In this document: piece after piece, positions 12,109 to 48,462 of the stretch
Numbering within the stretch: the stretch's first letter is position 1
How the letters are laid out: each line of letters starts with the position of its first letter
Assembly (NCBI GenBank): GCA_018657385.1
Contig: JABHXF010000009.1
Coordinates: forward strand, 2,554 to 66,553
Reading direction: 5' to 3'
Origin: Candidatus Woesearchaeota archaeon
Lineage (GTDB): Archaea; Nanobdellota; Nanobdellia; Woesearchaeales; DSVV01
Length of the DNA: 64,000 nucleotides
Made by a program: the position numbers and the translations under genes
Notes under the pieces: model-generated
Database searches by the model: none
What the model was told of the DNA's origin: nothing
What the model saw: only the letters and a program-made list of their open reading frames with translations

Positions 12109-12158
12109 GACTTTACAAAGAGTAGGTATATTGAGTGGGTTAAAAAAGGGTGTATTTA

Positions 12159-16190: not shown

Positions 16191-16192
16191 AA

Positions 16193-16852: not shown

Positions 16853-16894
16853 AAAATTAAAAAATAATTCCAATTAAGAGTAAATATTTCAAAA

Positions 16895-17782
16895 ATGAAT
16901 AAAATTAAAAAAAACTTTAAAATATTATTTCAAGATTATTTTGATTCATTTAAAAAAATTAGTTGGAGCTTTATCTTAATGATGATTACTGATTTTTTAT
17001 TTGTAATGTTATTGGTAGTTTTAATAACTTATTCATTTGGTTCTTTATCATCATATTATCAAGAAGCAATACCAGGGTTAGAAGAATATAAAAGTTTGTC
17101 TTTTTCCGAATTAAAAGAAAAAACCCCAGAGATTATCTCAAAAATTGAAGAAAATAAAGAAGAATTAGCAGCATCTGGTGTATATGATAATATTCAAATG
17201 AAAATAATAATGACATTATTATTGTCTGGTCTTCTTTTTTGTCTTTTATCTTCTTTGAGCAGATCAATTGTATGGGCACTAGTTAAAAAAAGCTTTAAAA
17301 AGTTCAATAGATTATTCATTTATAATTTTATATGGATTGTTTTCTGGGTTTTAGTGTTCATATTATTATTACTTATAATAAATCAAGAAACGATCATACA
17401 AGTATCATTATCTTTTATTTTTGTTTATGTTATACTTGCTTTGTTTTTTAGACTTAATTATAATATGAAAATCTATTCAAAAAATTCAATTACCGACGAG
17501 AAAATAAATAAAAATAGATTAATTAAACTTATTTTTTCAAAACCGGCAAAAGATATAATTGGTAGTTTGAAATTTTTTATATATTATTTTATTAGCTTTA
17601 TTTTAATTTTATTAACTTTTTCAATTGTTTTATCTATATCTAACTTATTCCAACGCATTATTATAAGTAATGAATTGATTATTGGCATTATTCAAATTAT
17701 TATAATTCTTGCATTAATTTCATGGGCAAGAATTTATCTAAATATAAGAATCCCATCAATTGTTGGAAAAACTCAAAATTAA
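16895..17782 (+). CDS. polytopic membrane protein, family D (D1)
   Basis: Multiple hydrophobic helices. Shares SIVWALVKKSFKKF and ISWARIYL motifs with GLIWAKIFNKKLDF and FSWAKRYL of 34674..35441. Confidence 0.65.
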   Translation: MNKIKKNFKILFQDYFDSFKKISWSFILMMITDFLFVMLLVVLITYSFGSLSSYYQEAIPGLEEYKSLSFSELKEKTPEIISKIEENKEELAASGVYDNIQMKIIMTLLLSGLLFCLLSSLSRSIVWALVKKSFKKFNRLFIYNFIWIVFWVLVFILLLLIINQETIIQVSLSFIFVYVILALFFRLNYNMKIYSKNSITDEKINKNRLIKLIFSKPAKDIIGSLKFFIYYFISFILILLTFSIVLSISNLFQRIIISNELIIGIIQIIIILALISWARIYLNIRIPSIVGKTQN

Positions 17783-17839
17783 AATTGTCATATTAAAGTT
17801 CATATAATATTAATAAAAACAAAAAAAGAGGAGATTACA

Positions 17840-20227: not shown

Positions 20228-20337
20228 GAATTTAATTATATTATAATCATTAAATTAGATTATAATAATTATTAAAATAATTAATATAATTTTAAGATGA
20301 TGGGTATAGAATGTAAAATAATAGATACAGAATAAAA

Positions 20338-23065: not shown

Positions 23066-23173
23066 GCCAGAGTAAGCCTAATGGTAAGGCACCTGTTTGA
23101 AAAGCAGGCGAGACCTCACCGTCCCTTGCGGGTTCAAGGTCAATGGGGGTTGATGAAATTCCCGTCTCTGGCG
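23066..23173 (+). tRNA. tRNA-like gene, probable intron-containing tRNA-Phe (GAA), 108 nt
   Basis: Acceptor GCCAGAG/CUCUGGC plus discriminator G. D-arm with GG. Anticodon arm CCUGU-UUGAAAA-GCAGG. T-arm halves GCGGG-UUCAA and CCCGU are split by about 21 nt, and about 14 extra nt lie in the variable region. The exact splice sites (BHB) could not be resolved by eye. Confidence 0.5.
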
Positions 23174-28203: not shown

Positions 28204-29757
28204 ATGAGATTTAGGTGGCAAGAAGTATCTACATTGATTAGTTCTGCAGTACTTGGTGCAGCTGGTATGTTTACAGCAGGTGCTATTGGTTGTTTTGGTG
28301 AAAATGCACAAACCACAATAATTGATTATATTTCTCCTGAAACTGCAAATATTGAAACAATACCAGATAAAACAGCAGAAACATTAACATCTAAAGTTGA
28401 TAAACAAATACATGATGCTGCCATAGATACTGGAAATAGAGACAATACCCCACAAAACCCAAGTGATATTGAAAAAGTAATAATAGAAAATCCAAATAAT
28501 CTAAGCACACAAGATGATAGTAATTTAACCAAACATATTAATTATAAGCATAATAATGTGGTTATTCCATTTACTGGTTTATTAGAAAATAAATACTTTG
28601 AAAATTTTCTTATTAATTCTGGAATCTATAAATCCATGCTTAATATGCATATATCCCAATTATTAGAATCAATCCCAGCAGAGTTATTACCAAGAGAACA
28701 TACTAACAAATATTTTGAAAAGTTCTTTGAAGCATATTACAAAGAGATTAGAAAAAAAAGAAGAGAAATGGGTGTAGTAAGAGATTTTTTCTGCAGAGTT
28801 TATGATGAAAAAGCAGCAGCAATATGTAATAATTTTGAAGATCGTGCTTTATTTTTCCCTCAGCAATTATTTGTTATTGATAAATCTGAATTTAAAGCTT
28901 ATTATTTTGATTTTTCTACTGAAATTGATCTAAGCAAAATAATTGTAAGTGTTGATGGAAGAAGAACAGCATATGATATAATTGAAGAACCAGGAGAAAT
29001 AGTAGTTAAAACAAAATCATATAAAACCAGAGCAAAAGCAAGACCAACATTAGATGAAATAATTGATGGAAATGATCATGAAGTTAGTGTAATAGGAGTA
29101 AAAGAAGTTCAGAAACAATATTCAACTACCTTTGCTCATGATAATCTAATGATTTACTTTGATGATAATATGAATCCTGTTGCTTATTCAAAAGATGCTG
29201 GTAAAACACAAAAACTTTACAATTCAAAAAGATCTGAAAAAATTGCGAGAGCAATTAAAAAAGCTTTCTTAAAAAGAAAACAACAAAATGAAGATTCAGA
29301 AGGGACAATAGTTGCCCCTGAAATGATATATTCAGTTGCAATTGGTGAAGATGAATATAATCATTCAAAAAAAAATAAAACATCAATTACACCAAATGGA
29401 ATATTGTGGGTAGATAAGATGGAATTTAGCCCAACTGAATACTATAGAGCTTATTATGAAATGTTTTACAAAGATAATCCTAAAAAATATGAAGAGAAAA
29501 AAGATGCAGGTAAAAAATATGGACCTAGATTAATATCATTTAACGGACCACTTGAATTCCATGATTTAATTGCATTTCATGGAACTGCTCCAAATGTGCA
29601 ATGGAGTGTTGGTAAAGCAGAATCATGGGGATGCTTAAGAATGTATAATAACGAAAGAAACAGTAAAAGAGAAGGAGATCATATCCTAGATTTATTTGAC
29701 AGATTAATTAGTACAAAATATAAAGGTCTTGGTGTGCCAGTTGTTATTGTACCTTAA
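28204..29757 (+). CDS. lipoprotein-like protein with a C-terminal L,D-transpeptidase (YkuD)-like domain
   Basis: N-terminal hydrophobic segment ending AGAIGC (lipobox-like). C-terminal FHGTAPNVQWSVGKAESWGCLRMYNNE matches the H-G-x(n)-S-x-G-C-(I/L)-R-M catalytic signature of YkuD. Confidence 0.6.
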   Translation: MRFRWQEVSTLISSAVLGAAGMFTAGAIGCFGENAQTTIIDYISPETANIETIPDKTAETLTSKVDKQIHDAAIDTGNRDNTPQNPSDIEKVIIENPNNLSTQDDSNLTKHINYKHNNVVIPFTGLLENKYFENFLINSGIYKSMLNMHISQLLESIPAELLPREHTNKYFEKFFEAYYKEIRKKRREMGVVRDFFCRVYDEKAAAICNNFEDRALFFPQQLFVIDKSEFKAYYFDFSTEIDLSKIIVSVDGRRTAYDIIEEPGEIVVKTKSYKTRAKARPTLDEIIDGNDHEVSVIGVKEVQKQYSTTFAHDNLMIYFDDNMNPVAYSKDAGKTQKLYNSKRSEKIARAIKKAFLKRKQQNEDSEGTIVAPEMIYSVAIGEDEYNHSKKNKTSITPNGILWVDKMEFSPTEYYRAYYEMFYKDNPKKYEEKKDAGKKYGPRLISFNGPLEFHDLIAFHGTAPNVQWSVGKAESWGCLRMYNNERNSKREGDHILDLFDRLISTKYKGLGVPVVIVP

Positions 29758-32700
29758 CTACCATCTTTCTTATACACATATGCACCCTTTCTTGTGCCTT
29801 CTTCGATATCAGAAATATAAGCAATTTCTTTTCCAGATCTTCCTGTTAATAACCCATTTAAAACAATAGTTGCAGAATCCCCACTAATACTTCTCTCAGT
29901 AGTAATTGTGTTCACACCCCTACCTAAACCCCTTAATTTTGAACCTGTTCTTCTTTCACTCATACAACCAGATATACTAACCAAGGCAGGTTTCTGATCA
30001 TTGTTTAATTTTTTAATAGCTGGATAATTCCAAGGTCTAAATACACCTCTTTTGATACCTTCTTCATCTGTGCTAAAACTAAACCCAGAATATCTTCCAC
30101 CATATGTATGTGAACTTGTATGGAATACATCATAACCACCTTTTGCAAATTCATTAGCAGCATCTTGAGCAGTATATACTACAGTCATTTCAACTTCAAC
30201 ATCACTGCCATCTTTTGTTTTGTATTTTTTAGGTGAAGATCGTTTTATTTTTCTGTCATCAGCTAAAACACCATTGCTGTCATAAGTCATGGGAACAATC
30301 CTACCACCACTTTGTTTTTCTCGTGAAGCACCAGGTGCATATAATATTCTTATTTTACCATCATCCACCATATTCTCAAAATCAGGATGTAATTCTATGT
30401 AACCACCTTGTTCTTTAATTAAATCAGGGTTAACAAAAGCATCTACAAAATCAAGATCTGTTGATGGTGATATTGTTGGACCTATAAGTTTTTCTACTGA
30501 ATCTTCACCAGATATAAGTGCTTTTCTTGAAGGAAAATCAAAATATCTTCTATATAAATTATATTCACTTTCTGAAACTCTTTCACTAGGGTAAATAGAT
30601 TTGTCCTGTCTAAATGTTATTGGGAATGTTACTTCTTTTTCTTTATCAGGATCAACTGCAACAACTTTTTCTAATTTGCTTGTAGGTCCAGTATCACCTT
30701 TTGGTTTGTCTTCAAAAGATTTTTTAATAAGTTCCAAAGGGGCTTCTTGTTTTCCATTAGATGCTTCTGCAAATTTAATACTAGTATGTTTGTATAGTTC
30801 TCTCCCTTTTCTAACATTAGTATCACCAAAAATATCTGAAATAATTTCTCCTTTCTCAAACTTAATCTTAACCTCTGCATCAGTTGACTTACCTTCTACA
30901 ACTATTCTACCTTGAGAAGAGCTAAGAATCGCATTTAATGATTCTTGTCCAAAAAAACCATCAACACCAATTTTATTCCCATCTAAAACTTGTGTTTCCT
31001 GCCAGTCTTTAACTTTTGCAGATGTTTGTTTATCATAAACTCCTGTTTGTTTAGAACCAACAACTTTTTGTATATTAAGAATATCATTATATTTTCTTGA
31101 ACCTTTTGATGCTTTATCTCCAGGACTAAAATAACCTCTGCTTGGAAAATCCATAAAGTCCTTTACATTTCTGCCTAATGCTTTTTCATGCTGTACATAC
31201 GCCCCTGGAGACATACTTGTTTTAACATTTTTACCATGAGTTATAATTCCATCTTTTGTAAATCCAACATATTCAGAAGTTGAATAAAGTGGCTTTTTCA
31301 TGATTTTTTCTTGGTTAGGAAAAAATAATCGTGTTGCAAATTTATTATGGGGTGTTATTTCAACACCATTAACAGATAAAGTTTTTTCATCTGATTTACC
31401 AGAATAAAGATATAATCTTCTGGATGAACTAACATCATCATAATCATCAACAATAAATTCTCCTTCTAAATAAATTCCCTTCCTTCCCCTATATGGATCA
31501 GGTCCATAACTTTTTACTTTAGTAATTCCTTTGTTGTCTGTAGTGTAATATTCATAGCCACCTATTGTTGTAGCTTTTACTTTTTTAATTTTTGCACCAT
31601 GACCTTCAATTATAGGCGCGACTCTGTGTACTCTAGTTGCCCCACCAGATTGAATATTATAAGCAGTTGCATATTTATCATGCACTGTAATGATTGGAGG
31701 GACCCTTACCTTTTTACCAGCAATATCTACTTTCTCCCTCTCAAACTCGATTCCTTCAACTTCCCCAATTCTTCCAGTAAAAGAAGATGGTCCAACTTCA
31801 ATATCTCTTGCATCCCTTACATTAATTTCTCTTATTTTTCCTTTTTTAATAGAAATTCTACCATTATCACCATTAATTTTAATATCTCCTTCCAAAGGAA
31901 TTGCTTTTCTCAGGTCTTCTTCAACTATTTTTTTAGATTCTGCAAATTCATCTCCTACACTTTCTAATGTTTCTTCTTCAATTGTTAAAGCTTGAACTAT
32001 TTCATTATCACCATAAGCACCTACAAAATCATTCCAACCTTTACCTAAACCAGCCAAAGCTTTTTTAGCCACTTCCTTCTCTTTTGCTGTTTTAAAAACT
32101 TCTATTTCTTTTTCTTTTTTATATTTCAATATTAACTTAAGTTTCCCATTACTAGTAACTTCCATTGCATACTTATCTTTTGCACTACCTTTTTTTAAAT
32201 CATAAACATTAATTGTAGATCCTTTGCACTTTAACTTACCATCTGATGAGAAAGAGATAATATTACCACTAATTGCATTAACATCAACACCTTCTGCCCG
32301 AAGATATTTTGAAAAAATAATTTTCCCCTGTATATCATTATTAATATATTTCCCATTGTTCTTTATTAAATATTTCTTTGTTATTGCCCTATCCTTTGAT
32401 GTTAGTGGATGTAATGTTAAAAGATGTGATGCAAGTATTTCCCTATCATTTAAATCATTAAAATTTACATCATTAAGATATTTTCTTGCAACTTTATGAT
32501 TATCACCAGAGATACTAAGTGGAAGCATAAACCCTCTGAGATATTTTTTCATCAATACTCTGTCGGGGTTTTTTGTTTCTAAAAAATAATTCTTTGCACC
32601 TTCTGGATAAAAAAGCATTTTATTTGGATTGGCTTTAAAATAACTATAAGCTATTTGTGGCCTTGTTTTTAAAAATTCATCACCTAATGTAGTAATTGTA

Positions 32701-32885
32701 TATTCTGGATCAAATGAATAAGCCAAATCAGGATCAGTAAAGATTAAGTCTGGAACATCAGCAATACTACAATCAGGCGGACAACCAGGATTTAAAGCTA
32801 AAGCATTGAAAGAAAATAGAATTAAAACTATTAAACTAATAAGTGTAAATATTAAAATTGAATATTTATTTATTTTTGAATTCAT
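29754..32885 (-). CDS. 1043-aa secreted protein with a PG_binding_1-like repeat and a possible C-terminal caspase-like (clan CD) His/Cys module
   Basis: Signal peptide. GVYDKQTSAKVKDWQETQVLDGNKIGVDGFFGQESLNAI resembles peptidoglycan-binding domain 1. C-terminal DVFHTSSHTYGG ... ALVSISGCMSE resembles a His-Gly / Cys dyad. Confidence 0.6.
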   Translation of the reverse strand: MNSKINKYSILIFTLISLIVLILFSFNALALNPGCPPDCSIADVPDLIFTDPDLAYSFDPEYTITTLGDEFLKTRPQIAYSYFKANPNKMLFYPEGAKNYFLETKNPDRVLMKKYLRGFMLPLSISGDNHKVARKYLNDVNFNDLNDREILASHLLTLHPLTSKDRAITKKYLIKNNGKYINNDIQGKIIFSKYLRAEGVDVNAISGNIISFSSDGKLKCKGSTINVYDLKKGSAKDKYAMEVTSNGKLKLILKYKKEKEIEVFKTAKEKEVAKKALAGLGKGWNDFVGAYGDNEIVQALTIEEETLESVGDEFAESKKIVEEDLRKAIPLEGDIKINGDNGRISIKKGKIREINVRDARDIEVGPSSFTGRIGEVEGIEFEREKVDIAGKKVRVPPIITVHDKYATAYNIQSGGATRVHRVAPIIEGHGAKIKKVKATTIGGYEYYTTDNKGITKVKSYGPDPYRGRKGIYLEGEFIVDDYDDVSSSRRLYLYSGKSDEKTLSVNGVEITPHNKFATRLFFPNQEKIMKKPLYSTSEYVGFTKDGIITHGKNVKTSMSPGAYVQHEKALGRNVKDFMDFPSRGYFSPGDKASKGSRKYNDILNIQKVVGSKQTGVYDKQTSAKVKDWQETQVLDGNKIGVDGFFGQESLNAILSSSQGRIVVEGKSTDAEVKIKFEKGEIISDIFGDTNVRKGRELYKHTSIKFAEASNGKQEAPLELIKKSFEDKPKGDTGPTSKLEKVVAVDPDKEKEVTFPITFRQDKSIYPSERVSESEYNLYRRYFDFPSRKALISGEDSVEKLIGPTISPSTDLDFVDAFVNPDLIKEQGGYIELHPDFENMVDDGKIRILYAPGASREKQSGGRIVPMTYDSNGVLADDRKIKRSSPKKYKTKDGSDVEVEMTVVYTAQDAANEFAKGGYDVFHTSSHTYGGRYSGFSFSTDEEGIKRGVFRPWNYPAIKKLNNDQKPALVSISGCMSERRTGSKLRGLGRGVNTITTERSISGDSATIVLNGLLTGRSGKEIAYISDIEEGTRKGAYVYKKDGS

Positions 32886-32947
32886 TTTTTATGTGTCAAT
32901 TTCTTTTATTTTATGTATTAATTAAATTTTTGTTTTAATTTTAATCC

Positions 32948-34411
32948 TTACTCTAATTCTTTATATGCTTCTTCCTCTACAAACAAAGTCATTTCTTGTT
33001 CACCAACATAACCATTTTGGTCTACAACAGTAATCCTGATTGTATGTTCCCCAATGTTTTCTTCAACAGGAATAAAACCAATTATCCCTGTTTTTTCATC
33101 AATATTAAATAAATCAGTATCATCGTAATAAGTAAATATAGTTTCTTCTGCTTCAGTTATTTCTCCAAGCTCTTCATCTGAATTAACTCCAGCAATAACT
33201 TGATAACTATATACATCCCCAATATATGCTGTTTGATAATCAATATATTCAATAGTTGGCTCATTAAATGATTTAACAACGTCTAACATCATTTTTTCTG
33301 CTCTCATTTCTTCATCTTCACTAACAATACCAATTGTAACTATATAACTTCCAATGTCAGTTTCAGCAGGTGTAAATTGTATTAATCCTGTTAGTTCATC
33401 AATTTCAAATAATTCAGTATTATCATAATATCCTTTGATATTACCAACAGCCTCTACTTGATAGCTATACAAATAACCTGCTTCTGTTACCTGCTTTGGG
33501 ATTGGCAATAAATCTAATGCATCTTCTTTATACTCATCTTCAATATCAAAGAAATGTACAAACATAAAAGTTACGTTATCTCCACCATATTCTTCCTTTG
33601 TGAAAAAATAAAGAATTTGTGAAGTATGGTCAGGAACAGGATCAAGACCAATAAAATTACCTTCTTCATCAGATTCATGGAATACAATGCCATAATCCTC
33701 AACTTCTGCTGTTTTTACTACAATATCATATATTTCTGTTAAATCCCTAATACAACTTAAACAGATAAGATTATCATTTGCTGCTTGATATTCTGAATAT
33801 TCTTTTGCAGCTTGATATAGTTCAGGATAAATAGATTGTACCTCAGTTTCAAATAAACTCCATGTCTTAATTGTTTCTCCAATTTTAACTTCAATTGGAT
33901 AAATCATCTTAACAATAATATTGTCTTCATACATTTCTGAATTAACTTCCAATTGTAATGGCTGAGCTGTAACCTCATAATTTAAATTTGAAAAATCTAA
34001 ACAATCTAAAACAAATGATTTAATCCTTAATGAAAGCTGTTTTTGAAGCTCATCTTTTGTTGGAATAACAGATTCAGAATCATAAACATAAAAAGGAATA
34101 TTAAAAAATGTACTATCGCCAAGATCATTAGTAACTGTAAAAGGCATTGATATTAAACCACCATCTTGATTTGTTCTTACTTCCTTGAATCCACCTTGAA
34201 CAGAATTCCATATGATTGCTTCTTTTGTTGCTTGCTCCATACATGATGTGACATAATTATATATTGGCTTTAGTTCATTAGGAACATCTTGTATTTTTGT
34301 AACCCGAACTCCTTGAGTAAGATAATTTTGAAAATAAATACCTAAACTAAATAAAATTAAGAAAACCATACCTATTATGATGAATAATGTAATTGCGCCT
34401 CTTTTATTCAT
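32948..34411 (-). CDS. family A protein (A3, 487 aa): prepilin/TadG-like N-terminus plus two cadherin-like (He_PIG-type) Ig repeats
   Basis: MNKRGAITLFIIIGMVFLILFSLGIYF. Conserved block P-x5-V-x2-C-x8-EAI-x4-(V/G)-x2-GG(Y/F), here PIYNYVTSCMEQATKEAIIWNSVQGGF. Repeats YSYQV-x(n)-LF-x-ID-x-TG-x-I-x-F-x-P. Confidence 0.7.
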   Translation of the reverse strand: MNKRGAITLFIIIGMVFLILFSLGIYFQNYLTQGVRVTKIQDVPNELKPIYNYVTSCMEQATKEAIIWNSVQGGFKEVRTNQDGGLISMPFTVTNDLGDSTFFNIPFYVYDSESVIPTKDELQKQLSLRIKSFVLDCLDFSNLNYEVTAQPLQLEVNSEMYEDNIIVKMIYPIEVKIGETIKTWSLFETEVQSIYPELYQAAKEYSEYQAANDNLICLSCIRDLTEIYDIVVKTAEVEDYGIVFHESDEEGNFIGLDPVPDHTSQILYFFTKEEYGGDNVTFMFVHFFDIEDEYKEDALDLLPIPKQVTEAGYLYSYQVEAVGNIKGYYDNTELFEIDELTGLIQFTPAETDIGSYIVTIGIVSEDEEMRAEKMMLDVVKSFNEPTIEYIDYQTAYIGDVYSYQVIAGVNSDEELGEITEAEETIFTYYDDTDLFNIDEKTGIIGFIPVEENIGEHTIRITVVDQNGYVGEQEMTLFVEEEAYKELE

Positions 34412-34496
34412 ATATATTAATTATTATATAATATGTTTATATAGTTTTTGGTAGATATATATACATATTTTCTTTTTTATACATTATTGGTGATTT

Positions 34497-34592
34497 AAAT
34501 CCAACAACATTGGCCGGACGAGCCGATAGGCGAGTAGGATTTTTCGAACAGAGTGAGAAAAGTCCGTCCGTGTCATTGTTGTTGTTGGATTT
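34497..34592 (+). repeat. structured repeat family 1, copy C
   Basis: AAATCCAACAACATTGGCC-GGAC-GAGCC-GAUA-GGCGA-GUA-GGAUUUUUC...GAAAAGUCC-GUCCGUGUCATTGTTGTTGTTGGATTT. Confidence 0.75.
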
Positions 34593-34615
34593 GTTATTGA
34601 CATACTAAGAAAATA

Positions 34616-34658
34616 AAAACCTTCAATAGAAACATGTCCTCCGGACCTAGTAAAAAAA
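34616..34658 (-). terminator. family F2 downstream motif after 34674..35441
   Basis: In mRNA sense: TTTTTTTACTAGGTCCGGAGGACATGTTTCTATTGAAGGTT, about 15 nt after the stop. Confidence 0.45.
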
Positions 34659-34673
34659 GAAAAATTAAGAATA

Positions 34674-35441
34674 TTATAATGCTTTATTAAAAACAAGACC
34701 TAAATATCTCTTTGCCCAACTGAAATATATTATAAATACAAGAAGATTAATGAACATTCTAACATTAAAAGGAATAAAATTCATGTATATTGCAATCTGT
34801 GATAATAAGAATAGAACAACTAAAGTAAGAGCAGTAATTATTATATAGGGCAATATGAACAAATAAATCTTTTTGAAAGTTACCTTAAAGAAACTTTTTA
34901 ATTTACCCAATACGAATAATGCATTAGCACTATGAGTTATATAAATTATCGCTGGCAATATGACAAGAACAAAGAACCATGCTTGAATTTTAGCAACCAC
35001 ATAATTCGCTGTAATTGCAAAGAATAATATAAATAATAACATTAAACAAAAATTCAATATACTTAAGTATAAAACTTTTTTAAAATCTAATTTTTTATTG
35101 AATATCTTAGCCCAAATTAAGCCCTTGAAAAAACTGAAATTTGCTAATAACAATATAAATATTAAAGCAGTGAAGATCCCAAAAACATATAGTGATGATT
35201 TAATTTGTTGGCCCATAACCATTAATGCTTCTAAAGGTAAGTTTTGCATACCCTCGACAAAACTATTTGTTTGGAATAAAAAAGTTGCTTCAGGTAAAAT
35301 ATATTTAATAAAAATTGCTAATGAGAAAATAAAGATAAAATAGTAAATTAAATCATATACAACTGTAAATAAATATTGCGGTAAATTCTTTTTTCTAAAG
35401 CAATCTAAGCTTTTAATGAATAATGAATTTTTTATGTGCAT
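34674..35441 (-). CDS. polytopic membrane protein, family D (D2)
   Basis: Six or so hydrophobic helices, with motifs shared with 16895..17782. Confidence 0.65.
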   Translation of the reverse strand: MHIKNSLFIKSLDCFRKKNLPQYLFTVVYDLIYYFIFIFSLAIFIKYILPEATFLFQTNSFVEGMQNLPLEALMVMGQQIKSSLYVFGIFTALIFILLLANFSFFKGLIWAKIFNKKLDFKKVLYLSILNFCLMLLFILFFAITANYVVAKIQAWFFVLVILPAIIYITHSANALFVLGKLKSFFKVTFKKIYLFILPYIIITALTLVVLFLLSQIAIYMNFIPFNVRMFINLLVFIIYFSWAKRYLGLVFNKAL

Positions 35442-35571
35442 GTTTAATATCCCCTGTTTATTCTTTGTAAAGTTTTATGTGTTTATATATTTAATGGGTT
35501 TTGAAGGTTAGGATGGTATGGAATGTTTAGATGGTAAAGAACCTTCCTTACCTTCCAAACTCCAAACCTTC

Positions 35572-37899
35572 CTAGCTCTTATAATAATTAGCTGGCATTT
35601 GACCACAACTATAATCTCCATTATCAACATCAATTATGAATTCTTCTCCACCTAAGACATTACATATAGGCTTAACATACTTATCATTATCTAATATTTT
35701 CAAACAAACATGATCAAATCTACATTCTTGTTTTTTAAAGTTAGTACCATCACCATCACATACAAAAGTTGTTTCATCTCCTGCATAATGGATTCTATGA
35801 ACTCCTAAAGGATTGTTTACAGCAAACTCATCCATCCAACCATATGCACCAGTATATTCTGATCCAAATGATTTTTTCTTTGTACAATGATTGTATAAAT
35901 AAACAATACCATGTATTGGTCCAATTGTTTGTAAAGTAAAAGAATATCTAAATGCATTTTCATCTACTACTTCTTTTTCTCCACCTAAAGTTACAATTAC
36001 TTCTCCTTCATCTAAATAACCAAGATTAAAGCCAAAATTATGTTCTTGTGTTATTGTTAATCCTGAAATAACATCAGTTTCACTCTCACCAGTATTATAA
36101 TAATCCATTGTACAAACAGAATCATACAACCAATACTCTAATCTTGAAAAAGCATTTTCAGTCCAATCATCTAATAAAGTTCCAAAAACACTTTCTACTC
36201 TAGATCTAAACTCAAAATTAAGATTATCATATGTTGCATCCATTTTTTTTTGTGCTCCTGTACATTCTGGACCAGCATAAGCTTTTTTGTCACATGCTTC
36301 AATTGTCTTTTCAATATAACCAGTTGGATCACCAGCACATCTTTTTAAGCCATCGAAAGTAGTACAATAAATACTTCCTTCTGATTCATGAACACATCCT
36401 TTAACATTATCACACTTTCTTTTTGCACAATCTCCACCAGAAGCAGCATCTGCTGCAGTACATCTTTTACCATCTGCAGTTGCATAAACATAACCTTCTG
36501 TTCCTTGGAAAACACTATGATGTTTAAACGTAAAAGAAGCTTTACCAGCATCGCAATTATCATCATCTTCACAAACAAATACATCTCCCTCTGTATCTAA
36601 CCCACCTATTTTAGATGATGATTTTTGTTCTTTAGGTTTTTGTTCTTCTTTTGTTTCTTCTTTCTTTTCTTCTTCTTCATTAGGTGAATTTAGTGGTACA
36701 GTTTTAGTTACAGCCATACTATCTTTAGCAAGTTGGCCTAATTTATTGTATTTGTTAAGATCATCTCCTAAATTATTAGCCATTGTACAATCATTTTTTT
36801 TACATACTAATATTACCTTACCTTCCTGATCATAATAAGCAGTTTCATCATCATCAGTAAGGGAAAAATCAAAACTAACACCCTTTTTATCTCCAGACTT
36901 TTCATTTAAAGTATAACCTTTTCCCTTTTCCCCATCAACATAATAGATTAACTTTTCCTGAGCTTCTTCTTCACCATCATCAGCATCTTCTTCTTCTTCT
37001 CCTGGAGTGTTTGATTTTGGTGGTTTAGCATAAGTGTCTAGTTTCTCTTGATTATTCTTTGCAGTTTTTTTAAGTTGATTTGCTTCTTTAGTTAATTTAT
37101 CTGCAAGTTCTATTTTTCCTTGCTTTTTAGCTTCTTCTGCCGCTTTTTCATAATCATTAGCTAATTCCTTTACTTTTTCATTGTATTCTTCTAACTCTGT
37201 TACTAATTCCTTTCTTTTTTCCTCATCAGGGGACACAGTAAGTACAAATGAAAGTTCATCAGAAAGTTCAGTAATCTTTTGATCATATTCATCTTTTTTC
37301 TTGTCTGCATCTTCAATTGCTTTTTCTAAATTCTCAATTGGTTGTTCTTCTTCAGATGCTTCATCTTCCCCATCTTCATCATCATCATCATCCTCATCTT
37401 CTTCTACATTTGATTCAGGTGGAGGAGCAGGTTCAGTAGAAGGATTTTGTTGTGCATATCCTGTTTCAAATGCACCAACCATTTTATTAAAATCATCTTT
37501 ATCTTTTGGTTCCATCTCAGTGTCCATCATTTGTTTACATTGATTTGCATTACCACATTCACGTTCATCACCACCCATAATAAAAGGTTTTTTTGCATAA
37601 GCTTTAACTAAAGTTGCTTTACCAGAATCATCAACCTTAAATTTAACTTTAAGCTTCCCAGTACCAGCTTCTTTGTAACCTTCATAATTACCTTCATCAT
37701 CAACAGGATATAATGTAATTTCTTTCATCCCTTGACCAATAGTAATTGGATTACCATTTTGTGTTACAGGTTCATCTTTCCAATCTGCCATTCCTGCCAG
37801 ATTACTTTGATAGCTAGGACTATAGAAAACTGCCATTGAAAATAGAAACATGACTAGTACAATCATGCTTACTGCCTTTCTAAAATGCTGTTTTGGCAT
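35572..37899 (-). CDS. family C protein (775 aa): signal anchor, acidic and K/E-rich coiled-coil-like region, conserved roughly 335-aa Cys-rich C-terminal domain
   Basis: The C-terminal 335 aa align almost continuously with the C-terminus of 38198..44596 (for example NFEFRSRVESVFGTLLDDWT, YWLYDSVCTMDYYNTG, ISGLTITQEHNFGFNLGYLDEGE, HYAGDETTF). Confidence 0.75.
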   Translation of the reverse strand: MPKQHFRKAVSMIVLVMFLFSMAVFYSPSYQSNLAGMADWKDEPVTQNGNPITIGQGMKEITLYPVDDEGNYEGYKEAGTGKLKVKFKVDDSGKATLVKAYAKKPFIMGGDERECGNANQCKQMMDTEMEPKDKDDFNKMVGAFETGYAQQNPSTEPAPPPESNVEEDEDDDDDEDGEDEASEEEQPIENLEKAIEDADKKKDEYDQKITELSDELSFVLTVSPDEEKRKELVTELEEYNEKVKELANDYEKAAEEAKKQGKIELADKLTKEANQLKKTAKNNQEKLDTYAKPPKSNTPGEEEEDADDGEEEAQEKLIYYVDGEKGKGYTLNEKSGDKKGVSFDFSLTDDDETAYYDQEGKVILVCKKNDCTMANNLGDDLNKYNKLGQLAKDSMAVTKTVPLNSPNEEEEKKEETKEEQKPKEQKSSSKIGGLDTEGDVFVCEDDDNCDAGKASFTFKHHSVFQGTEGYVYATADGKRCTAADAASGGDCAKRKCDNVKGCVHESEGSIYCTTFDGLKRCAGDPTGYIEKTIEACDKKAYAGPECTGAQKKMDATYDNLNFEFRSRVESVFGTLLDDWTENAFSRLEYWLYDSVCTMDYYNTGESETDVISGLTITQEHNFGFNLGYLDEGEVIVTLGGEKEVVDENAFRYSFTLQTIGPIHGIVYLYNHCTKKKSFGSEYTGAYGWMDEFAVNNPLGVHRIHYAGDETTFVCDGDGTNFKKQECRFDHVCLKILDNDKYVKPICNVLGGEEFIIDVDNGDYSCGQMPANYYKS

Positions 37900-38081
37900 T
37901 AATTAACCCCTTTTATTCACTCTTTTTATTATAATAATACTATATTAAACCAAAATTAATTGATTTTTATTTATTATTCATTTATAGATAAATCTATCTA
38001 TATCAAACATTCTGTAGAAATTGATTTATAAATTTTATTATAGATATATGCAATAATATGATTTTTTATTAATATATGAAT

Positions 38082-38169
38082 AAAAAACAACAACCAAGGC
38101 ACAGACGGACTTTCTTCGAAAGTCCTATTCGCCTCGCTTTGCTCGTCTCATCTGGCCATGTTGTTTTTT
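38082..38169 (-). repeat. structured repeat family 1, copy D
   Basis: The reverse complement reads AAAAAACAACAUGGCCAGAUGAGACGAGCAAAGCGAGGCGAAUAGGACUUUC-GAA-GAAAGUCCGUCUGUGCCUUGGUUGUUGUUUUUU. Confidence 0.75.
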
Positions 38170-38197
38170 GTAGATCTAAAAAATTTAATTGATTCAA

Positions 38198-41100
38198 TTA
38201 ACAGCCATAATCGCCTTCATCAGTGATTACAAACTCATCTCCACCTAATTGAGTGCAAATAGGTGCAGTATATTTTTCTTTTTGTGAATCTGTCCAAGTA
38301 TCCACGTCCATGATTTTCAAACAAACATAATCAAACCTACATTCTGTATCAATTTCATCACATATAAAAGTTGTTTCATCACCAGCATAATGTGTTCTAT
38401 GAACACCCTTAGGATTATTCACAACAAACTCATCATTCCAACCAATTTGTCCAGTTGCTTTGCTTTCAAAAGATTTTTCAGAATCACATTTATTATAAAG
38501 ATAAACAATACCATGCAGTGCCCCAATTGTTTGAAGACTAAATGAATATCTATAAATTCCTTCATCAACGATTTCTCGTTCACCACCAATTGTTGCAATT
38601 ATCTCTCCTTCATCCAAATATCCTAAATTAAAACCAAAATTATGTTCTTGTGTTATAGTTAGTCCTGAAATTACATCAGTTTCACTACTTCCAGTATTAT
38701 AATAATCCATAGTACAAACAGAATCATACAACCAATATTCCATTTTATTGAAAAAGTTTCCTGTCCAATCATCCAACAAAGTTCCAAACACACTTTCTAC
38801 TCTAGATCTAAATTCAAAGTTTAATGTATCATAAACTTTATCCATTCTTTTTTGTGCTCCTGGACAATTTGGTCCTTTATAACTATTTTTATCACAATCT
38901 TCAATCATTTTTTCAATTGAATCAACTGGATTTGTTGCACATGCTTTTTCTCCTTGATATGTTGTACAAAAAGTATCACCATCATAATCATGTTTACATC
39001 CTGTTAATTTATCACATTTAACAGCTGAACAACCAGAATTAGGATTTGATGCTTCTGCTGCTGAACAAGGAACTTTTTTACCTTTTTCTTCTTTCACGTA
39101 TACAAAACCTTCTGTTCCTTGGAAAACACTATCATGTTTAAACATAAATGAAGCTTTAGTAGGATCACACTCCTCTACTTTAGCGTCGCAAACAGCCAAA
39201 TCACCATTACTATCTAAGCCAGCAATATTTTCAGGTGGTTTGTATTCTTTTTTAGCTTTTGCTGCTGCTTCAGCTTCTGCTTTTTTCTTTGCTTCTTCTT
39301 CTGCTTTTTTCTTTTTTTCTTCTTCAGCTTTCTTTTTCTCTTCTTCAGCTTTTTTCTTTTCTGCAGCTTCTTTTGCTTTTTCTTCTTCTGTTTTTTCTTT
39401 TCCTTCTTTCTTTTCTTCTTCAGCTTTTGCTTCTACTTCTTTAGCTTTTGCTGCTGCTTCTTTTTCTGCCTTTGCTTTTGCTTCATTCTCTTCTTTAACT
39501 TTTTCATCAATAACTTCTTCTTTCAATGCTTTTGCTTGTGGTCCTAATTCACCATCTTTATATTTAATTAATTTTGTTTTATCTTTTTCTGTATAACCAA
39601 CAGGATCACCTTTAGCATCATAATAAATTGTTTCTCCTGTTTTTTTATTTTTAAAAGCTTTAGTATGTTCTCCTGCATCAACAACTTCATAAGTTCCTTT
39701 ACTTGTTGTTATAATTTGTCCAGAAGTAAATGAAGCAGTCCATGGAGTTACTGGAATTATTGGAGTTGGTGAAACACCACCAGGCATTGTTCCTGATTTT
39801 TGTTTTAATTCCTGTTTCTTTTTCTGTTCCTCAACTAATTCTTTTGCTCCCTCTAGAACATCATTTCTTTCATTAAAATTCTGAACATCTTCTTGAGCTA
39901 ATTTTGTTAAGAATGCAAGATTCATATCATCCTCTTCAATTGTATCAACTAAATCATCAAAATGATCATCTAAACCTTTACATAGTTTTGGATCACACTC
40001 TGTGTATGTAACTTGATCTTTATTAACACCTGCCTGAAAAGAATCAACTATACCTACAACTTTTCCTTTATTGTTAATAACAACATATTGGTTATCTATT
40101 TTAGTATTACCAAAATATAAGGATTCACCAGATTTTGGATTAGAACTAAATTTTTGATAAGTACTGCCACCATAAATTATATCCCCTAACTGAGGCGAAT
40201 TAGGATAATAAACCATTTCAACTCTTTCATCTCCTTTACCAACACCAACTTTTACTTTTCTGACATTACCATCTTCGTCAAATGTTAGTGTTCTTGCATT
40301 ATCAAAACTTTCAATATTTTTTTGTGAGCCAGTAAAACCACCCCAATTATTAGGATTAACTTCACCATCTCCTTCAGATAATATTGTCAATTCTGTTTCT
40401 CCTTCATTATTCTCAGAAAATTCATAAACATGTTCATCAGTATCCCAACCAGCAATTGCAACATAACATCTTTTTCCTTTACAAACGAAACCATCATCTT
40501 CAAAACTTCTACCTTGCATATCTTGAGAAATTCTTCCGTAAAGCAAAGCAATTTCTTTTTCTGATAATTTAGAATCTTTAAAAGCAGTTTCATAAACTCT
40601 TTGTGGAATTTCAACTTCATTCCCCCCTATATCTGTATATTTATAATGGGTTATTCCATCATCATCTACATGTGTTCTAATATATTTTCCAGACACCTCT
40701 GAACCTAATCCTTTTGACGAAGAACCAAGTCTAAGTTTATAGTTACTATGACCTAATTTCAAAGAATCTTTGTCTAGATAAGCTTTAACATCCCTCTGGA
40801 TTAAGTCTAAAACAGCTCCAATTTGTTCTTTTGCAGATTCACATTTATCAGGAAATTGTGTACAATCTAGAGAACCAACAGATTTAATAACTCCAAAATT
40901 ATCTACTACAACTTCTTTGTCTTCCCCATCAATTTCTACTTTACCTTTCCATCTACCTTGAGTTCCATCACCTACAAATTCAAAGTTTCTTCCATCAGTA
41001 TCTTTAATATTTCTTTTCCCTGTTAGAGGGGAATAAGATGCAATTAATCCATTATTCATTTTAATTTCATATTCATCTAAAGCAGTGCCTGTTTTGAATT

Positions 41101-44100
41101 TATAGGTTAAAACCCCATTATATCTTAAATTTTCAAGACCTGTATTTTCATCAGACATGCCTCGTTGATAATTTTCTTCGAAAAATTCTAATCTATCAGA
41201 ATCATCATCACCAACCCTAGGTCCGATTAGAGTATCTTCAGAATGTTTACTTCTAAAATCTTCATATATTCTTACAACTTTTTCACCATTAACAATGTCT
41301 ACTGTAAAAACATTACCATCAACTGCACATGCAAAACTTCCACATTTCATTTTCATTGCTGCACCATTTAATGTTTTATCATCATATCTTGTTGCAATTG
41401 CTTCATACAATAATGCAACATCTTCTTCTTCCATAATTGTTTGATCTAAAATATTTTTAGAAGTATCAATCTTTGTCATTTGCATTAATTCATTATATGC
41501 ACCTTTTGGAATCTTTAATTTTTTATCTTGATCTGATGTTGGATTTAAATAATATTCAACAATACCATTGTTTGTTTCTTTTTTGAATTTAGAGAAAAGC
41601 TGAGGAGTTATTGGCTCTGTTCCTTGAGCCATAAATTGTTTTAGTCTTAGTTCATCTCTCATTACCCTTAAATCAGCAACCATAGCATTTTGTGTTTGAG
41701 GATCTGCTATCCCACTTGGAACACATTTTGAATCTGCTATATTACCATAACATGAAACTTCTTTATTCTTATCTTTAGTTTTATAACACTTCTTTTCTTC
41801 ACAATAATGCTTATTTCCTAAATCTCTGTCAATGATTCTTTGTTGGTATTCTTTCAAACTTAAAGTTCCATCTTGATCTGATTTAACATCTAAAAATATT
41901 AGAGCTGATTGAATTTCTTTAGCATCTCCAAACTCAAACTGGCCAGGTCCTTTATCTAATCCCTTTAAACCATCAATAACAGGATTCATTCCAGTGTCTG
42001 CTTCTGAAACATAACCAACTTTAATTGTATCAGCAACACCTGTTGCAGCTTCTTCAGCTACTTGTTGAGATAAACCAGGCACAGTTTTGGTTGGTGCTTC
42101 TGTTAGTGTTATTAATTTACCAATAACCTCACTAGGATCACCAGTTGTTAATTCTCCTGTTACCATACTTGCTCTATCCCCATTTTGATCATAACAATAT
42201 TGTTTATCATAACAATAAACATTTCCTTTATTTGTTTCTACAATATCGTAAAATAATGTTTCATCTTCAACTTTAATAGTCAAAACAGTTCCAGTTACTG
42301 ATGCAGTTCCTCCTGTTGCCTCAAATAGTTTAATAGGAGCTTTAGTTTCAACTACAACTTGAGAAACAATACTAACATCTGGAGCAGCTTGTAATGCAGC
42401 AGTTTTAGCAAAATCACCAATGTTTTCTTCAGCATATTGTTCTGTTATAACACCATTTTGATAAACATCTCTTCTTTCTTTCCCAAGTGCATCTATATAT
42501 GCTAATGTTCCTGTTTGGAAAGGAACTATATTTCCATCTTCTTGTAAAATTTGCATATCACCACTCAAACTTTTAAAAATTCTCTGCCCATCATATGAAC
42601 CCCCACCTATTTTTGTTCCAACAGGACTAAAAAATTCACCTTTACCCCCACCAGAAATAACAAGAATAGAATCTTCACCAGTAAATCTACCATTATCAAC
42701 AACTTGATAATTTCCTTGATTATCTACAACTATGAATTCAGTGGTTACCTGCTTTGTTTTTTTATCAATACTTTTTTTTACATAAACTCTTCCTGATGGT
42801 GTTAAAAACTCAGTGGATTCAACACTAAAAAGACCATAACCATTATCAACCCCAAGAAGAATACCATCATTAGTTGTATCAACCATTTCTTTTTGTGCAT
42901 TACGAAACTTACCAGCTGCAGAATTATCCTTCTCATCTAATTTTCCAGATAATAATGCATAACGTACTTTTCCACTTGCATCAAAACTTTTTACAGGAAC
43001 AGTGGAACTAGAAGGCAACTTGAAATATTCTTTTCCCATCTTCAAACAAAAATTATTACTACCACAAGAATAAACTTGTTTTCCTGTTGCAGTAGAATAT
43101 GATGTTGGTGTTGGTTTTTTAACATCTTCTGTTGGTTCCCACTTTTGTGTCAGTTTTACACCTGCACTTTTAAGTGAATCTGGAGTACCATCACTAATTG
43201 GTTTTGGTTTTTTTAATTTCAAATCAATAACTTGTTGTTGTGGAGCTTCTTCAATATATACTAAATCATCTGGTAAAATATCAGGTTCGTTTGCTAATTC
43301 CATAACTTGGTCATAATTAACCTTTTTTATAACCATACCAGTAGAGGTGATAACAACCTGCTCGCCGTTATTATTAACCATCATTAATTTACCTTCATTA
43401 TCACGTTTATAACCAAACATTCCATCTACTTCAAGATAAGCACCATTCTTTTTTGTTTTAACCCTATATGTTTCAATAAATCCTAAACTATCAAGAACTA
43501 TTTGGCCATTATTAAGTGTTAATGTTTGACCTTTAACTTGGTTTCCACTTAAATCATAAACTTCACCTGCAGTTGTTTTAAAATATTTTTTAGTTGACTT
43601 CCCACCAATACTTAATGGTGTAACATCATGTGTAACATCATCATTATCAAATAATAATGTATGTTCTTCAATACCTTGTGGAGTAACTTTCTGCAACTTG
43701 AATGTTTTTTTACCTGGATTAGAAATCTTTTTCCATTCTAAATTAGTAGAAAGATAATATAGATGACCATCAACACCCTCAATAACAGTTTGTTCCTGCC
43801 TTGCATCATCAATTGCACTTGATGGATGAAAAATATAAGGTATTCCAACAGGTTCAGGAGGAATAATTGAATTCTGCTTTTCAAGAGCTATTCTCATTGC
43901 TTTTTGTTGTGCTTCACTATATTTTTGTTCTTCAATATCATCTGAAGTTAAAACTTTATTCCCTTTATTAGTATCAACCCAAACTTGTTCATTATTACTA
44001 TTAACTGTTAATATTTGCCCATTTGAATCTTTTACAAGTCCTAATTGAGAATCTCTTACAGTATATACACCATTTAATCCTGTAGGAACTAAAACATTAT

Positions 44101-44596: not shown

Positions 44597-44693
44597 TCAA
44601 CTCACTCTATATAATAAAGCTTGTAAGGCTAGTAGGGCTTGTAAGGCAAATTTGCCTCAATCCTTTCAAGCTCCAAACCATCCTAACTTCTTA

Positions 44694-48458: not shown

Positions 48459-48462
48459 AATC

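What the first reader, a model, noticed from the sequence alone, without database searches (positions are those of the whole stretch)
35575..36591. Roughly 335-aa Cys-rich C-terminal domain shared by the 775-aa and 2132-aa proteins, with a near-identical DNA patch suggesting gene conversion
The C-terminal thirds of 35572..37899 and 38198..44596 (DNA about 35575..36591 and 38201..39215) align almost without gaps. Shared strings include ASF(T/M)FKH, SVFQGTEG, NFEFRSRVESVFGTLLDDWT, YWLYDSVCTMDYYNTG, ISGLTITQEHNFGFNLGYLDEGE and HYAGDETTF. The rest of the two proteins is unrelated in length. At the DNA level, 36003..36138 and 38605..38740 are identical at roughly nine of ten positions by eye, far above the rest of the genes. 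Both proteins also carry K/E-rich low-complexity segments directly before the domain. I recognise no known fold. The many conserved Cys and aromatic residues suggest a disulfide-stabilised extracellular module, possibly the anchoring or interaction end of the protein. The 219-aa protein at 16193..16852 may be a stand-alone divergent version (W-x4-C-x-YY-x-G).
Basis: seen in the sequence. Interest (0 to 1): 0.65.

Follow-up and report, generated by a model that had tools for sequence, protein, structure and literature searches.

The report
Undescribed seven-cysteine domain in archaeal surface proteins
Two neighbouring surface-protein genes of a tiny marine archaeon end in the same, previously undescribed cysteine-rich domain, which belongs to a conserved but uncharacterised cell-surface gene cluster, and one 150-base stretch of it has been copied between the two genes.

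Summary
ORFs 35572..37899 (775 aa) and 38198..44596 (2132 aa) share a C-terminal ~340-aa domain (63% identity, E 4e-145).

The domain matches nothing in Pfam, NCBIfam, PHROGs, PDB sequences, or PDB/BFVD folds. An exhaustive profile search finds about 41 genuine cluster representatives among 1.84 billion. The domain is almost always C-terminal. The named relatives are Woesearchaeota, and the other loci are low-GC metagenome contigs.

In every locus examined the domain protein sits in one slot of a conserved operon: pilin-like protein, large Cys-rich protein, domain protein(s), 6-7-TM protein, pilin-like protein, giant secreted protein.

The core has seven conserved Cys. The domain total is odd in nearly all members, and the last Cys is usually the final residue.

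A sister genome with both paralogs gives 19 concerted and 0 orthologous sites inside codons 586-635, against 17 and 66 outside (p = 4e-11).

The 219-aa ORF has only positional support. Function is inferred: a head or docking module on a variable stalk.

The parts
35572..37899 (-). Gene for the 775-aa protein: N-terminal anchor, strain-variable middle, short K/E linker, C-terminal 7-Cys domain
   Evidence: ORF list; hydropathy; ortholog P0001 and the L007 second gene
38198..44596 (-). Gene for the 2132-aa protein: N-terminal anchor, ~1650-aa variable region, ~100-aa K/E/A-rich linker, C-terminal 7-Cys domain ending on Cys
   Evidence: ORF list; identical to P0005; ortholog P0006, 2110 aa
35575..36624 (-). 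C-terminal domain of the 775-aa protein (aa 426-775): Cys-rich beta N-lobe, three helices, beta-sandwich, Cys-rich tail
   Evidence: BLASTP; alignments A1 and A2; AlphaFold2 model, pLDDT 81
38201..39241 (-). C-terminal domain of the 2132-aa protein (aa 1786-2132)
   Evidence: BLASTP; profile envelope
35995..36144 (-). Gene-conversion tract in the 775-aa gene (codons 586-635)
   Evidence: Four-taxon nucleotide sites: 19 concerted, 0 orthologous; tree flip
38597..38746 (-). Matching gene-conversion tract in the 2132-aa gene (offset +2602)
39242..39538 (-). K/E/A-rich linker of the 2132-aa protein (aa ~1687-1785), presumed helical spacer
   Evidence: Sequence; weak sub-threshold TolA match at aa 1687-1792
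36625..36687 (-). Short K/E-rich linker of the 775-aa protein (aa ~405-425)
   Evidence: Sequence
36678..37390 (-). Strain-variable middle cassette of the 775-aa gene (aa ~170-407), replaced by an unrelated 394 nt in strain L008
   Evidence: BLASTN of L008 against the window; assembly-graph branch at 37391 in seawater runs
37801..37899 (-). N-terminal basic and hydrophobic anchor of the 775-aa protein (MPKQHFRKA + helix)
44498..44596 (-). N-terminal basic and hydrophobic anchor of the 2132-aa protein (MPKRKFRLA + helix)
48463..50733 (-). Operon partner: 756-aa pilin-like protein A (class-III-type N-terminus)
44694..48458 (-). Operon partner: 1254-aa Cys-rich secreted protein directly upstream of the domain genes
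34674..35441 (-). Operon partner: 255-aa six-TM membrane protein directly downstream
32948..34411 (-). Operon partner: 487-aa pilin-like protein B (MNKRG|AITLFIIIG)
29754..32885 (-). Operon partner: 1043-aa secreted protein
16193..16852 (+). 219-aa orphan ORF in the domain-protein slot of the second (+ strand) paralogous cluster; relationship unproven
   Evidence: Synteny; negative sequence and structure tests

Best explanation
The shared region is an undescribed extracellular domain. It has a Cys-rich beta N-lobe, three helices, a beta-sandwich and a Cys-rich tail, with seven conserved core cysteines. It forms the C-terminal end of N-terminally anchored, stalk-like surface proteins of Woesearchaeota-type DPANN archaea. 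These proteins are a fixed component of a conserved six-to-seven-gene cell-surface operon: two large pilin-like proteins, a large Cys-rich protein, a 6-7-TM protein and a giant secreted protein. The window's lineage carries a tandem duplication, a long (2132 aa) and a short (775 aa) version. After that duplication, a ~150-nt segment (codons 586-635) was homogenised between the two copies by gene conversion, independently in this genome and in a sister genome.

Inferred mechanism: the N-terminus holds the protein in the membrane. The variable middle and the K/E-rich helical spacer project the C-terminal domain away from the cell. The domain is the conserved docking head that binds one shared, lineage-specific partner, most likely another product of the operon. 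The converted segment would be the specificity-determining part, and one unpaired cysteine (possibly the terminal one) may make an intermolecular bond.

Shown: the domain, the family, the operon, the duplication and the mosaic history. Inferred: topology, spacer, docking role and the role of the odd cysteine.
For: - Domain and significance.
- No described family or fold: Pfam, NCBIfam, PHROGs, PDB sequences, Foldseek PDB best E 0.012 at TM 0.20 (51), BFVD best E 0.025 (55).
- Family: 43 representatives at E <= 1e-3 among 1.84 billion, two of them spurious. The domain is C-terminal in nearly all, behind 0-1800 variable residues with N-terminal signals or anchors.
- Relatives named Candidatus Woesearchaeota.
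- Same gene order in L003/L006, L004, L005, L007, L008, L010, L012, L013/L014, and in part L009 and the P0001 contig.
- Seven core Cys, odd totals, terminal Cys as last residue in 30 of 40.
- Conversion: protein sites 29 O / 13 C / 2 x, with 8 consecutive C at aa 591-631. Nucleotide sites 0 O / 19 C in the patch against 66 O / 17 C outside, Fisher p = 4e-11. Ser570 and Ser594 codon-family switches agree within each genome. The NJ topology flips.
- Docking and specificity reading: the patch is the least conserved core segment in distant members (0.33 against 0.53) and the least confident part of the model (pLDDT 64 against 84), yet is 92% identical between the paralogs. The domain diverges at about the rate of the other operon proteins (51-54% against 45-58% to L003/L005), while the rest of the same proteins is ~22% identical or unalignable, and even swapped between strains.
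Against: - There is no experimental or expression evidence; no RNA run holds the locus.
- The partner is not identified.
- Disulfide pairing could not be read from the model, so which Cys is unpaired is unknown.
- Synonymous sites show no excess identity in the patch, so the conversion is old. Only three synonymous codons carry the within-genome signal, so convergent co-evolution of the protein segment is not fully excluded.
- pTM is only 0.49, and the AlphaFold database of cellular proteins could not be searched, so fold novelty is not fully established.
- In many adhesins the conserved distal domain is itself the ligand-binding part, which would fit the rival reading equally well.
Confidence: 0.5

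Rival explanations
1. The domain is the distal adhesive head itself. It binds a conserved structure on the host cell of this episymbiotic archaeon, and the rest of the protein is only a stalk of adjustable length (long and short versions).
For: C-terminal position opposite the N-terminal anchor, with a spacer directly before it. Long and short tandem pairs occur in two distant lineages. TSP3-type calcium-binding repeats in some members indicate extracellular proteins. DPANN archaea are thought to depend on host attachment (background from the paper read).
Against: Ligand-binding tips of adhesins are usually the fast-evolving part. Here the domain is the conserved part, and the middle is hypervariable even between strains that are 99.7-100% identical on either side of the swapped segment. 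Within-genome homogenisation of a lineage-variable segment fits a self-encoded partner at least as well. Only 1-2 copies occur per genome, always inside the operon.
Confidence: 0.25
2. The domain is a C-terminal sorting or attachment signal. It would be recognised, and perhaps cleaved, by the operon-encoded membrane machinery, in the manner of the type IX secretion C-terminal domain or sortase signals. The terminal Cys would be the attachment point.
For: Conserved C-terminal module behind unrelated N-terminal 'cargo'. Conserved extreme C-terminal motif G-x-TGS-x-x-C. An adjacent conserved 6-7-TM protein.
Against: At 210-350 aa it is far larger than known sorting signals. The family HMM finds only the two proteins in the window, and 1-2 per locus elsewhere, rather than many cargo proteins. 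There is no match to any sorting-domain family in Pfam or NCBIfam. Several close members carry 10-14 residues after the last Cys.
Confidence: 0.1
3. The high-identity patch reflects only stronger purifying or convergent selection on that protein segment, with no DNA exchange between the paralogs.
For: Amino-acid identity in the patch is 92-97%. Synonymous codon identity is not elevated (75% against 69%, p = 0.58; saturation expectation 64%).
Against: Purifying selection alone would keep orthologs alike as well. Inside the patch, though, every one of the 19 informative nucleotide sites groups the within-genome paralogs against their orthologs, and both genome pairs share derived states relative to three outgroups. 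Two serine codons switch between the AGY and TCN families in step within each genome, which selection on the protein cannot explain.
Confidence: 0.12

Closest known systems
TolA / TonB-type envelope-spanning proteins (architecture only)
   Same: N-terminal membrane anchor, a long charged K/E/A-rich helical spacer, and a small globular C-terminal domain that contacts a partner in another envelope layer. The linker of the 2132-aa protein gives a weak hit to TolA models.
   Different: The hit is far below the curated cut-off (27 bits against 213) and lies in low-complexity sequence. The C-terminal domain is unrelated, Cys-rich and much larger. This is an archaeon without an outer membrane, and no TolQR/ExbBD partners are present.
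C-terminal sorting or attachment domains of secreted proteins (type IX secretion CTD, PGF-CTERM/archaeosortase, LPXTG/sortase)
   Same: A conserved module at the extreme C-terminus of otherwise unrelated surface proteins, next to dedicated membrane proteins.
   Different: No sequence match. It is 210-350 aa rather than 30-100. There is no C-terminal TM helix. Only one or two carriers occur per genome, and they are encoded inside the operon itself.
Segmental concerted evolution of tandem paralogs by gene conversion (for example duplicated tuf genes or bacterial surface-antigen families; from general knowledge)
   Same: Tandem, same-strand paralogs. A short contiguous tract has a phylogeny that groups paralogs within a genome instead of orthologs.
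   Different: The tract is old (about 10% diverged, synonymous sites near saturation) and appears to have been converted independently in two lineages at the same place, which suggests selection to keep that segment matched.
Large surface proteins of other DPANN archaea implicated in host contact (for example SPEARE proteins of Nanohaloarchaeota; from memory, not checked here)
   Same: Very large, secreted or anchored, lineage-specific proteins in ultrasmall archaea with reduced genomes.
   Different: No sequence relationship was found. The present family is defined by a specific 7-Cys C-terminal domain and a fixed operon context, with no recognisable enzymatic or adhesin domains.

Membership tests
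Any curated protein family (Pfam-A, NCBIfam, PHROGs) | Profile match at or near the curated threshold over the domain | tested here: not met
   There are no hits on the domain in the two window proteins or in 9 distant members.
Any solved or predicted viral structure (PDB, BFVD) | Significant sequence or fold similarity | tested here: not met
   phmmer against the PDB gives 0 hits at E <= 1. Foldseek against the PDB gives a best E of 0.012 at TM 0.20, and against BFVD a best E of 0.025. The AlphaFold database of cellular proteins was not available.
TolA | N-terminal TM anchor | tested here: met
   Both proteins have a hydrophobic segment at aa ~5-25.
TolA | Match to the TolA models above the curated cut-off, including C-terminal domain III | tested here: not met
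   The scores are 26.9 bits against a cut-off of 213, and 19.6 against 59.45, and only the K/E/A linker matches.
Type IX secretion / sortase / archaeosortase C-terminal sorting domains | Short C-terminal signal matching a sorting-domain model, present on many cargo proteins per genome | tested here: not met
   No Pfam or NCBIfam match was found. The family HMM finds only 2 carriers in the 64-kb window, and loci elsewhere hold 1-2. Whole genomes were not scanned.
Archaeal type IV pilin-like proteins (class III signal peptide) | [KR]-[GAS] cleavage motif followed by a ~20-aa hydrophobic helix at the N-terminus | tested here: inconclusive
   FRKA|VSMIVLV.. and FRLA|MFMITLV.. fit the motif by eye, but distant members have ordinary Sec-type signals. 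No pilin N-terminal Pfam model matched, and no prepilin peptidase is seen in the window.
Thioester-domain adhesins | Match to the thioester domain with its Cys-Gln pair | tested here: not met
   No Pfam match of any kind was found on the domain.
Gene conversion between paralogs (process) | A contiguous tract whose phylogeny groups within-genome paralogs against orthologs | tested here: met
   There are 19 concerted and 0 orthologous sites in codons 586-635, against 17 and 66 outside, p = 4e-11. The tree topology flips.
Gene conversion between paralogs (process) | Reduced synonymous divergence inside the tract | tested here: not met
   Identical codons number 33/44 in the patch against 122/176 elsewhere, p = 0.58, and synonymous sites are near saturation.
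Gene conversion between paralogs (process) | Synonymous states shared within a genome that protein-level selection cannot explain | tested here: met
   Ser570 is AGT/AGT in genome A and TCT/TCT in genome B. Ser594 is TCT/TCT in A and AGT/AGT in B. Thr617 is ACA/ACA in A and ACT/ACT in B. This rests on few sites.
The 7-Cys C-terminal domain family itself (for the 219-aa ORF) | Detectable profile similarity or the seven-Cys pattern | tested here: not met
   hhalign gives 0.07-0.1% probability. The HMM gives no hit with filters off. The mature part has 3 Cys. The ORF is an orphan and its model has pLDDT 36.6. Only the syntenic position agrees.

The most novel reading that the evidence does not exclude
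The operon encodes an undescribed cell-surface apparatus of Woesearchaeota-type DPANN archaea. In it, stalk proteins of very different length are plugged in through the 7-Cys head. The unpaired (terminal) cysteine would make a covalent intermolecular link. The homogenised segment (codons 586-635) would be the lock-and-key surface that co-evolves with a genome-specific partner. This would be a first molecular handle on how these uncultured ultrasmall archaea build the structure with which they contact other cells.
Probability: 0.15. Interest if true: 0.75.

Novelty: categorically new. Interest (0 to 1): 0.55.

Why it matters
Woesearchaeota and related DPANN archaea are abundant, uncultured and thought to live attached to other cells, yet almost nothing is known about their surface machinery. 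This analysis turns an anonymous pair of ORFs into a defined domain family with:
- a diagnostic pattern of seven cysteines and a terminal Cys;
- a fixed place in a conserved multi-gene surface operon;
- a strain-variable exposed region;
- a short segment kept matched between paralogs by repeated gene conversion.

Together these give concrete targets (domain, partner candidates, specificity segment) for structure prediction of complexes, metaproteomics and cryo-tomography. 'New' here means undescribed in the libraries searched. It does not establish a new biological principle, and such dark-matter families are common in DPANN genomes.

Tried and rejected
2. Sequence tests of the 219-aa ORF against the family all came back negative: hhalign against A1 and A2, hmmsearch with filters off, and phmmer. 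A homolog search found only the ORF itself, and the single-sequence AlphaFold model is unusable (pLDDT 36.6).
3. Pfam, NCBIfam and PHROGs scans of every operon protein found nothing above threshold. Sub-threshold hits were rejected as compositional: PEPcase, PBCV basic adaptor, TolA, Mycoplasma MSC_0624 and MG_279/280.
4. Foldseek hits (GbpA, cobra venom factor, GH2 Ig-like domains, TEAD) are generic beta-sandwich matches at TM ~0.2, and no inference was drawn.
5. Two literature searches found no description of the domain or operon.
6. A search for RNA evidence found none.
7. A check for the same homogenisation in the independent short + long pair of L013 was only suggestive: within-genome identity of 0.90 exceeds the ortholog's 0.83 in two windows.
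8. An assembly artefact was considered for the mosaic and rejected. Two independent assemblies of the window strain agree at 99.7-100%. The patch still carries 14 differences. The sister genome has both paralogs on one contig.
Full report
**1. The observation**

ORFs 35572..37899 (-, 775 aa) and 38198..44596 (-, 2132 aa) exist. The DNA is 72.8% identical over 1008 nt. The first 33 residues (MPKQHFRKA.. / MPKRKFRLA.. plus a hydrophobic helix) are also alike. The rest is unrelated. Both proteins have a K/E-rich stretch directly before the domain, about 20 aa in the short protein and about 100 aa in the long one.

**2. The organism**

The window is cellular. It has ~30% GC and encodes GyrB, MetRS, QueA, an Lrp/AsnC regulator and a PAC2 proteasome chaperone. 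Rfam finds two tRNAs, one of them intron-containing. The only genomes with close relatives of the domain are three MAGs titled Candidatus Woesearchaeota. The locus occurs in at least 20 seawater or marine metagenome runs. I therefore read it as a marine Woesearchaeota-type DPANN archaeon.

**3. The domain family**

- **No described relative.** Pfam, NCBIfam, PHROGs and PDB sequences give nothing on the domain.
- **Rare but real.** A word-indexed search of 5.8 billion proteins found three relatives. An exhaustive profile search of 1.84 billion representatives found 43 at E <= 1e-3, 15 of them at E <= 1e-30, and two are spurious repeat proteins.
- **Position in the protein.** The domain sits at the extreme C-terminus in nearly all members, behind 0-1800 residues of unrelated sequence that starts with a signal peptide or anchor.
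- **Conserved core.** The universally conserved core is the last ~210 residues, with motifs YRYAxSLKLIG, YLYNSCT and CRF[ND]xxC, and a C-terminal G-x-TGS-x-x-C. The Cys-rich N-lobe is present only in a subset.
- **Structure model.** An AlphaFold2 model built on a 29-sequence alignment has mean pLDDT 81 and pTM 0.49. It shows a beta-rich N-lobe (residues 1-98), three helices (100-170), a beta-sandwich (175-290) and a Cys-rich tail. Foldseek finds no significant match in the PDB (best E 0.012, TM 0.20) or BFVD (best E 0.025). The AlphaFold database could not be searched.

**4. The cysteine pattern**

Seven Cys are conserved in essentially all 40 members: C596, C672, C714, C726, C732, C746 and C765 in 775-aa numbering. 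The N-lobe adds Cys only in even numbers, so domain totals are 7, 11, 13, 15 or 17, odd in nearly all members. C765 is the very last residue in 30 of 40 proteins. At least one Cys therefore cannot sit in an intradomain disulfide. Which one is unknown.

**5. Genomic context**

All-against-all comparison shows two paralogous clusters in the window:

| Cluster | Gene order (aa) |
|---|---|
| - strand, 50733..29754 | 756 (pilin-like; class-III-type N-terminus) -> 1254 (Cys-rich) -> 2132 -> 775 -> 255 (six TM) -> 487 (pilin-like; KRG\|AITLF) -> 1043 |
| + strand, 12150..22521 | 1346 -> 219 -> 295 (seven TM) -> 795 (pilin-like) -> 727 (fn3 / purple-acid-phosphatase-N) |

The - strand order recurs in the Woesearchaeota MAGs (L003, L004, L005), in a metagenome contig (L006), in the P0001 contig, and in distant members (L010, L012, L013/L014, partly L009). 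Homology of the neighbours was confirmed by BLASTP. The domain protein always occupies the slot between the large Cys-rich protein and the 6-7-TM protein. Most genomes have one domain protein. The window, its sister genome (L007) and L013 have a long + short tandem pair.

**6. Gene conversion**

Among codons with the same amino acid, 33/44 are identical in the patch against 122/176 elsewhere (p = 0.58). The overall 70% is close to the 64% expected at saturation from codon usage.
- **A sister genome makes a four-taxon test possible.** Contig L007 carries both paralogs in tandem: P0006 (2110 aa) and a protein 99% identical to P0001.
- **Protein sites.** 29 sites support orthology, 13 support within-genome grouping and 2 support the third split. 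Eight consecutive concerted sites fall at aa 591-631, and no orthology site lies between aa 586 and 635.
- **Nucleotide sites.** Before the patch the counts are 55 O / 15 C / 4 x. In the patch (codons 586-635) they are 0 / 19 / 0. After it they are 11 / 2 / 2. Fisher p = 4e-11.
- **Identity and tree.** In the patch the window's paralogs are 85-88% identical in DNA, while the orthologs are 62-78%; outside it the relation is reversed. NJ trees flip from ((775,P0001),(2132,P0006)) to ((775,2132),(P0001,P0006)).
- **DNA-level evidence.** Ser570 and Ser594 use different codon families (AGT and TCT) in the two genomes but the same family within each genome. This argues for DNA exchange rather than convergent protein evolution.
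- **More than one event.** Both genome pairs share derived states relative to three outgroups, so the tract was converted in both lineages.
- **Age.** The event is old, with about 10% divergence since.

**7. What the converted segment is**

Across distant members this segment is the least conserved part of the core (mean top-residue frequency 0.33, against 0.53 for the sandwich and the tail). It varies in length (32-65 residues between C596 and the GEK motif). It is also the least confident part of the model (pLDDT 64 against 84). Within a genome, however, it is kept 92% identical between the paralogs. That pattern is what one expects of a specificity-determining surface that must match one partner in the same cell.

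**8. Strain variation**

Contig L008 (94.6 kb, an independent assembly) is 100% identical to the window over 6.2 kb and 99.7% identical over 11.1 kb. Between those blocks, window 36678..37390 (aa ~170-407 of the 775-aa protein) is replaced by an unrelated 394 nt, giving the 669-aa protein P0004. Assembly graphs of seawater runs branch exactly at 37391, and one branch encodes the P0004 allele, so both alleles coexist in a single sample. The middle of the protein is therefore hypervariable while both ends are fixed.

**9. Interpretation**

Shown:
- an undescribed C-terminal domain family;
- its fixed operon context;
- a lineage-specific tandem duplication;
- a segmental mosaic history best explained by gene conversion;
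- a variable middle region.

Inferred:
- The proteins are anchored by the N-terminus.
- The K/E-rich stretch is a helical spacer. The only computed support is a weak, sub-threshold TolA hit.
- The C-terminal domain is the conserved docking head for a shared partner, probably operon-encoded, with the converted segment as specificity determinant and an unpaired Cys available for an intermolecular bond.

Rivals are a host-binding adhesive head, a sorting or attachment signal, and selection without DNA exchange. They are weighed in the Rival explanations section.

**10. The 219-aa ORF**

No sequence method links it to the family. It has no homologs beyond its own cluster, and its model is unusable. 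It may be a degenerate remnant or an unrelated replacement. I cannot tell which.

**11. Verdict**

The domain and its operon are undescribed in every library available here. Interest is moderate: dark-matter families are common in DPANN genomes. This one, though, comes with a conserved operon, a distinctive odd-Cys signature, strain-level cassette variation and a well-supported conversion tract that points to a functional surface.

Noticed in passing
window 12150..22521 (+): A second, divergent paralogous copy of the surface operon: 1346 aa, 219 aa, 295 aa (7 TM), 795 aa (pilin-like) and 727 aa (fn3 / purple-acid-phosphatase-N). The 1346-aa protein resembles the 1254-aa one, and the 795-aa protein resembles the 756- and 487-aa ones.
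   Followed up: partly
window 36678..37390 (-): The middle of the 775-aa gene is a strain-level cassette. It is replaced by an unrelated 394 nt in an otherwise 99.7-100% identical contig (L008). Both alleles are present in one seawater run, and further graph branches at 37390 and 37372 hint at more alleles.
   Followed up: partly
window 38075..38175 (-), intergenic between the two genes: A GC-rich nested hairpin followed by a T-run (dG -30.1 kcal/mol, z -2.96) with no Rfam match. Its 32-nt core (38082..38113) appears at several-fold higher depth in many unrelated contigs of four metagenome runs, so it is a repeated element of unknown nature, perhaps a terminator or small RNA.
   Followed up: partly
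window 23066..23173 (+): Rfam detects a 108-nt tRNA, evidently intron-containing, that ARAGORN in its default bacterial mode missed.
   Followed up: no
L009 1..8096 (+), upstream of the domain gene P0012: The source annotation calls a single gene product of 24,485 aa running off the locus. If real, this is an extraordinarily large ORF in a low-GC archaeal contig.
   Followed up: no
L003 11429..12700 and 13777..14874, L004 7495..8766, L013 11273..12544 and 16077..16917: In several relatives the operon is interrupted right after the domain gene by an AAA_14/DUF4143 ATPase gene and by small nucleotidyltransferase/DUF6932-type ORFs. This looks like an insertion hot spot for mobile or defence-like genes.
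   Followed up: no
window 56923..59012 (+): Two tandem paralogous Cys-rich secreted proteins (378 and 317 aa) carry MopE-type putative metal-binding motifs, and one also has a VWA domain.
   Followed up: no
window 34674..35441 (-) and 12150..16190 (+): Sub-threshold NCBIfam hits to Mycoplasma families linked to F1-like ATPase clusters: MSC_0624 12-TM protein (E 3e-6, 26 bits against a cut-off of 70) and the MG_279/MG_280 family (E 1e-3). These are probably compositional, but both fall in the same operon type.
   Followed up: no
L013 10001..16076: An independent short (396 aa) + long (1163 aa) tandem pair of domain proteins in a distant lineage. Within-genome identity slightly exceeds ortholog identity in two central windows, which hints at similar homogenisation.
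   Followed up: partly
window 39240..39596 (+): A 118-aa F/S/A-rich ORF lies antisense to the K/E/A-rich linker of the 2132-aa gene. It is a mirror artefact of low-complexity coding sequence, not a gene.
   Followed up: no
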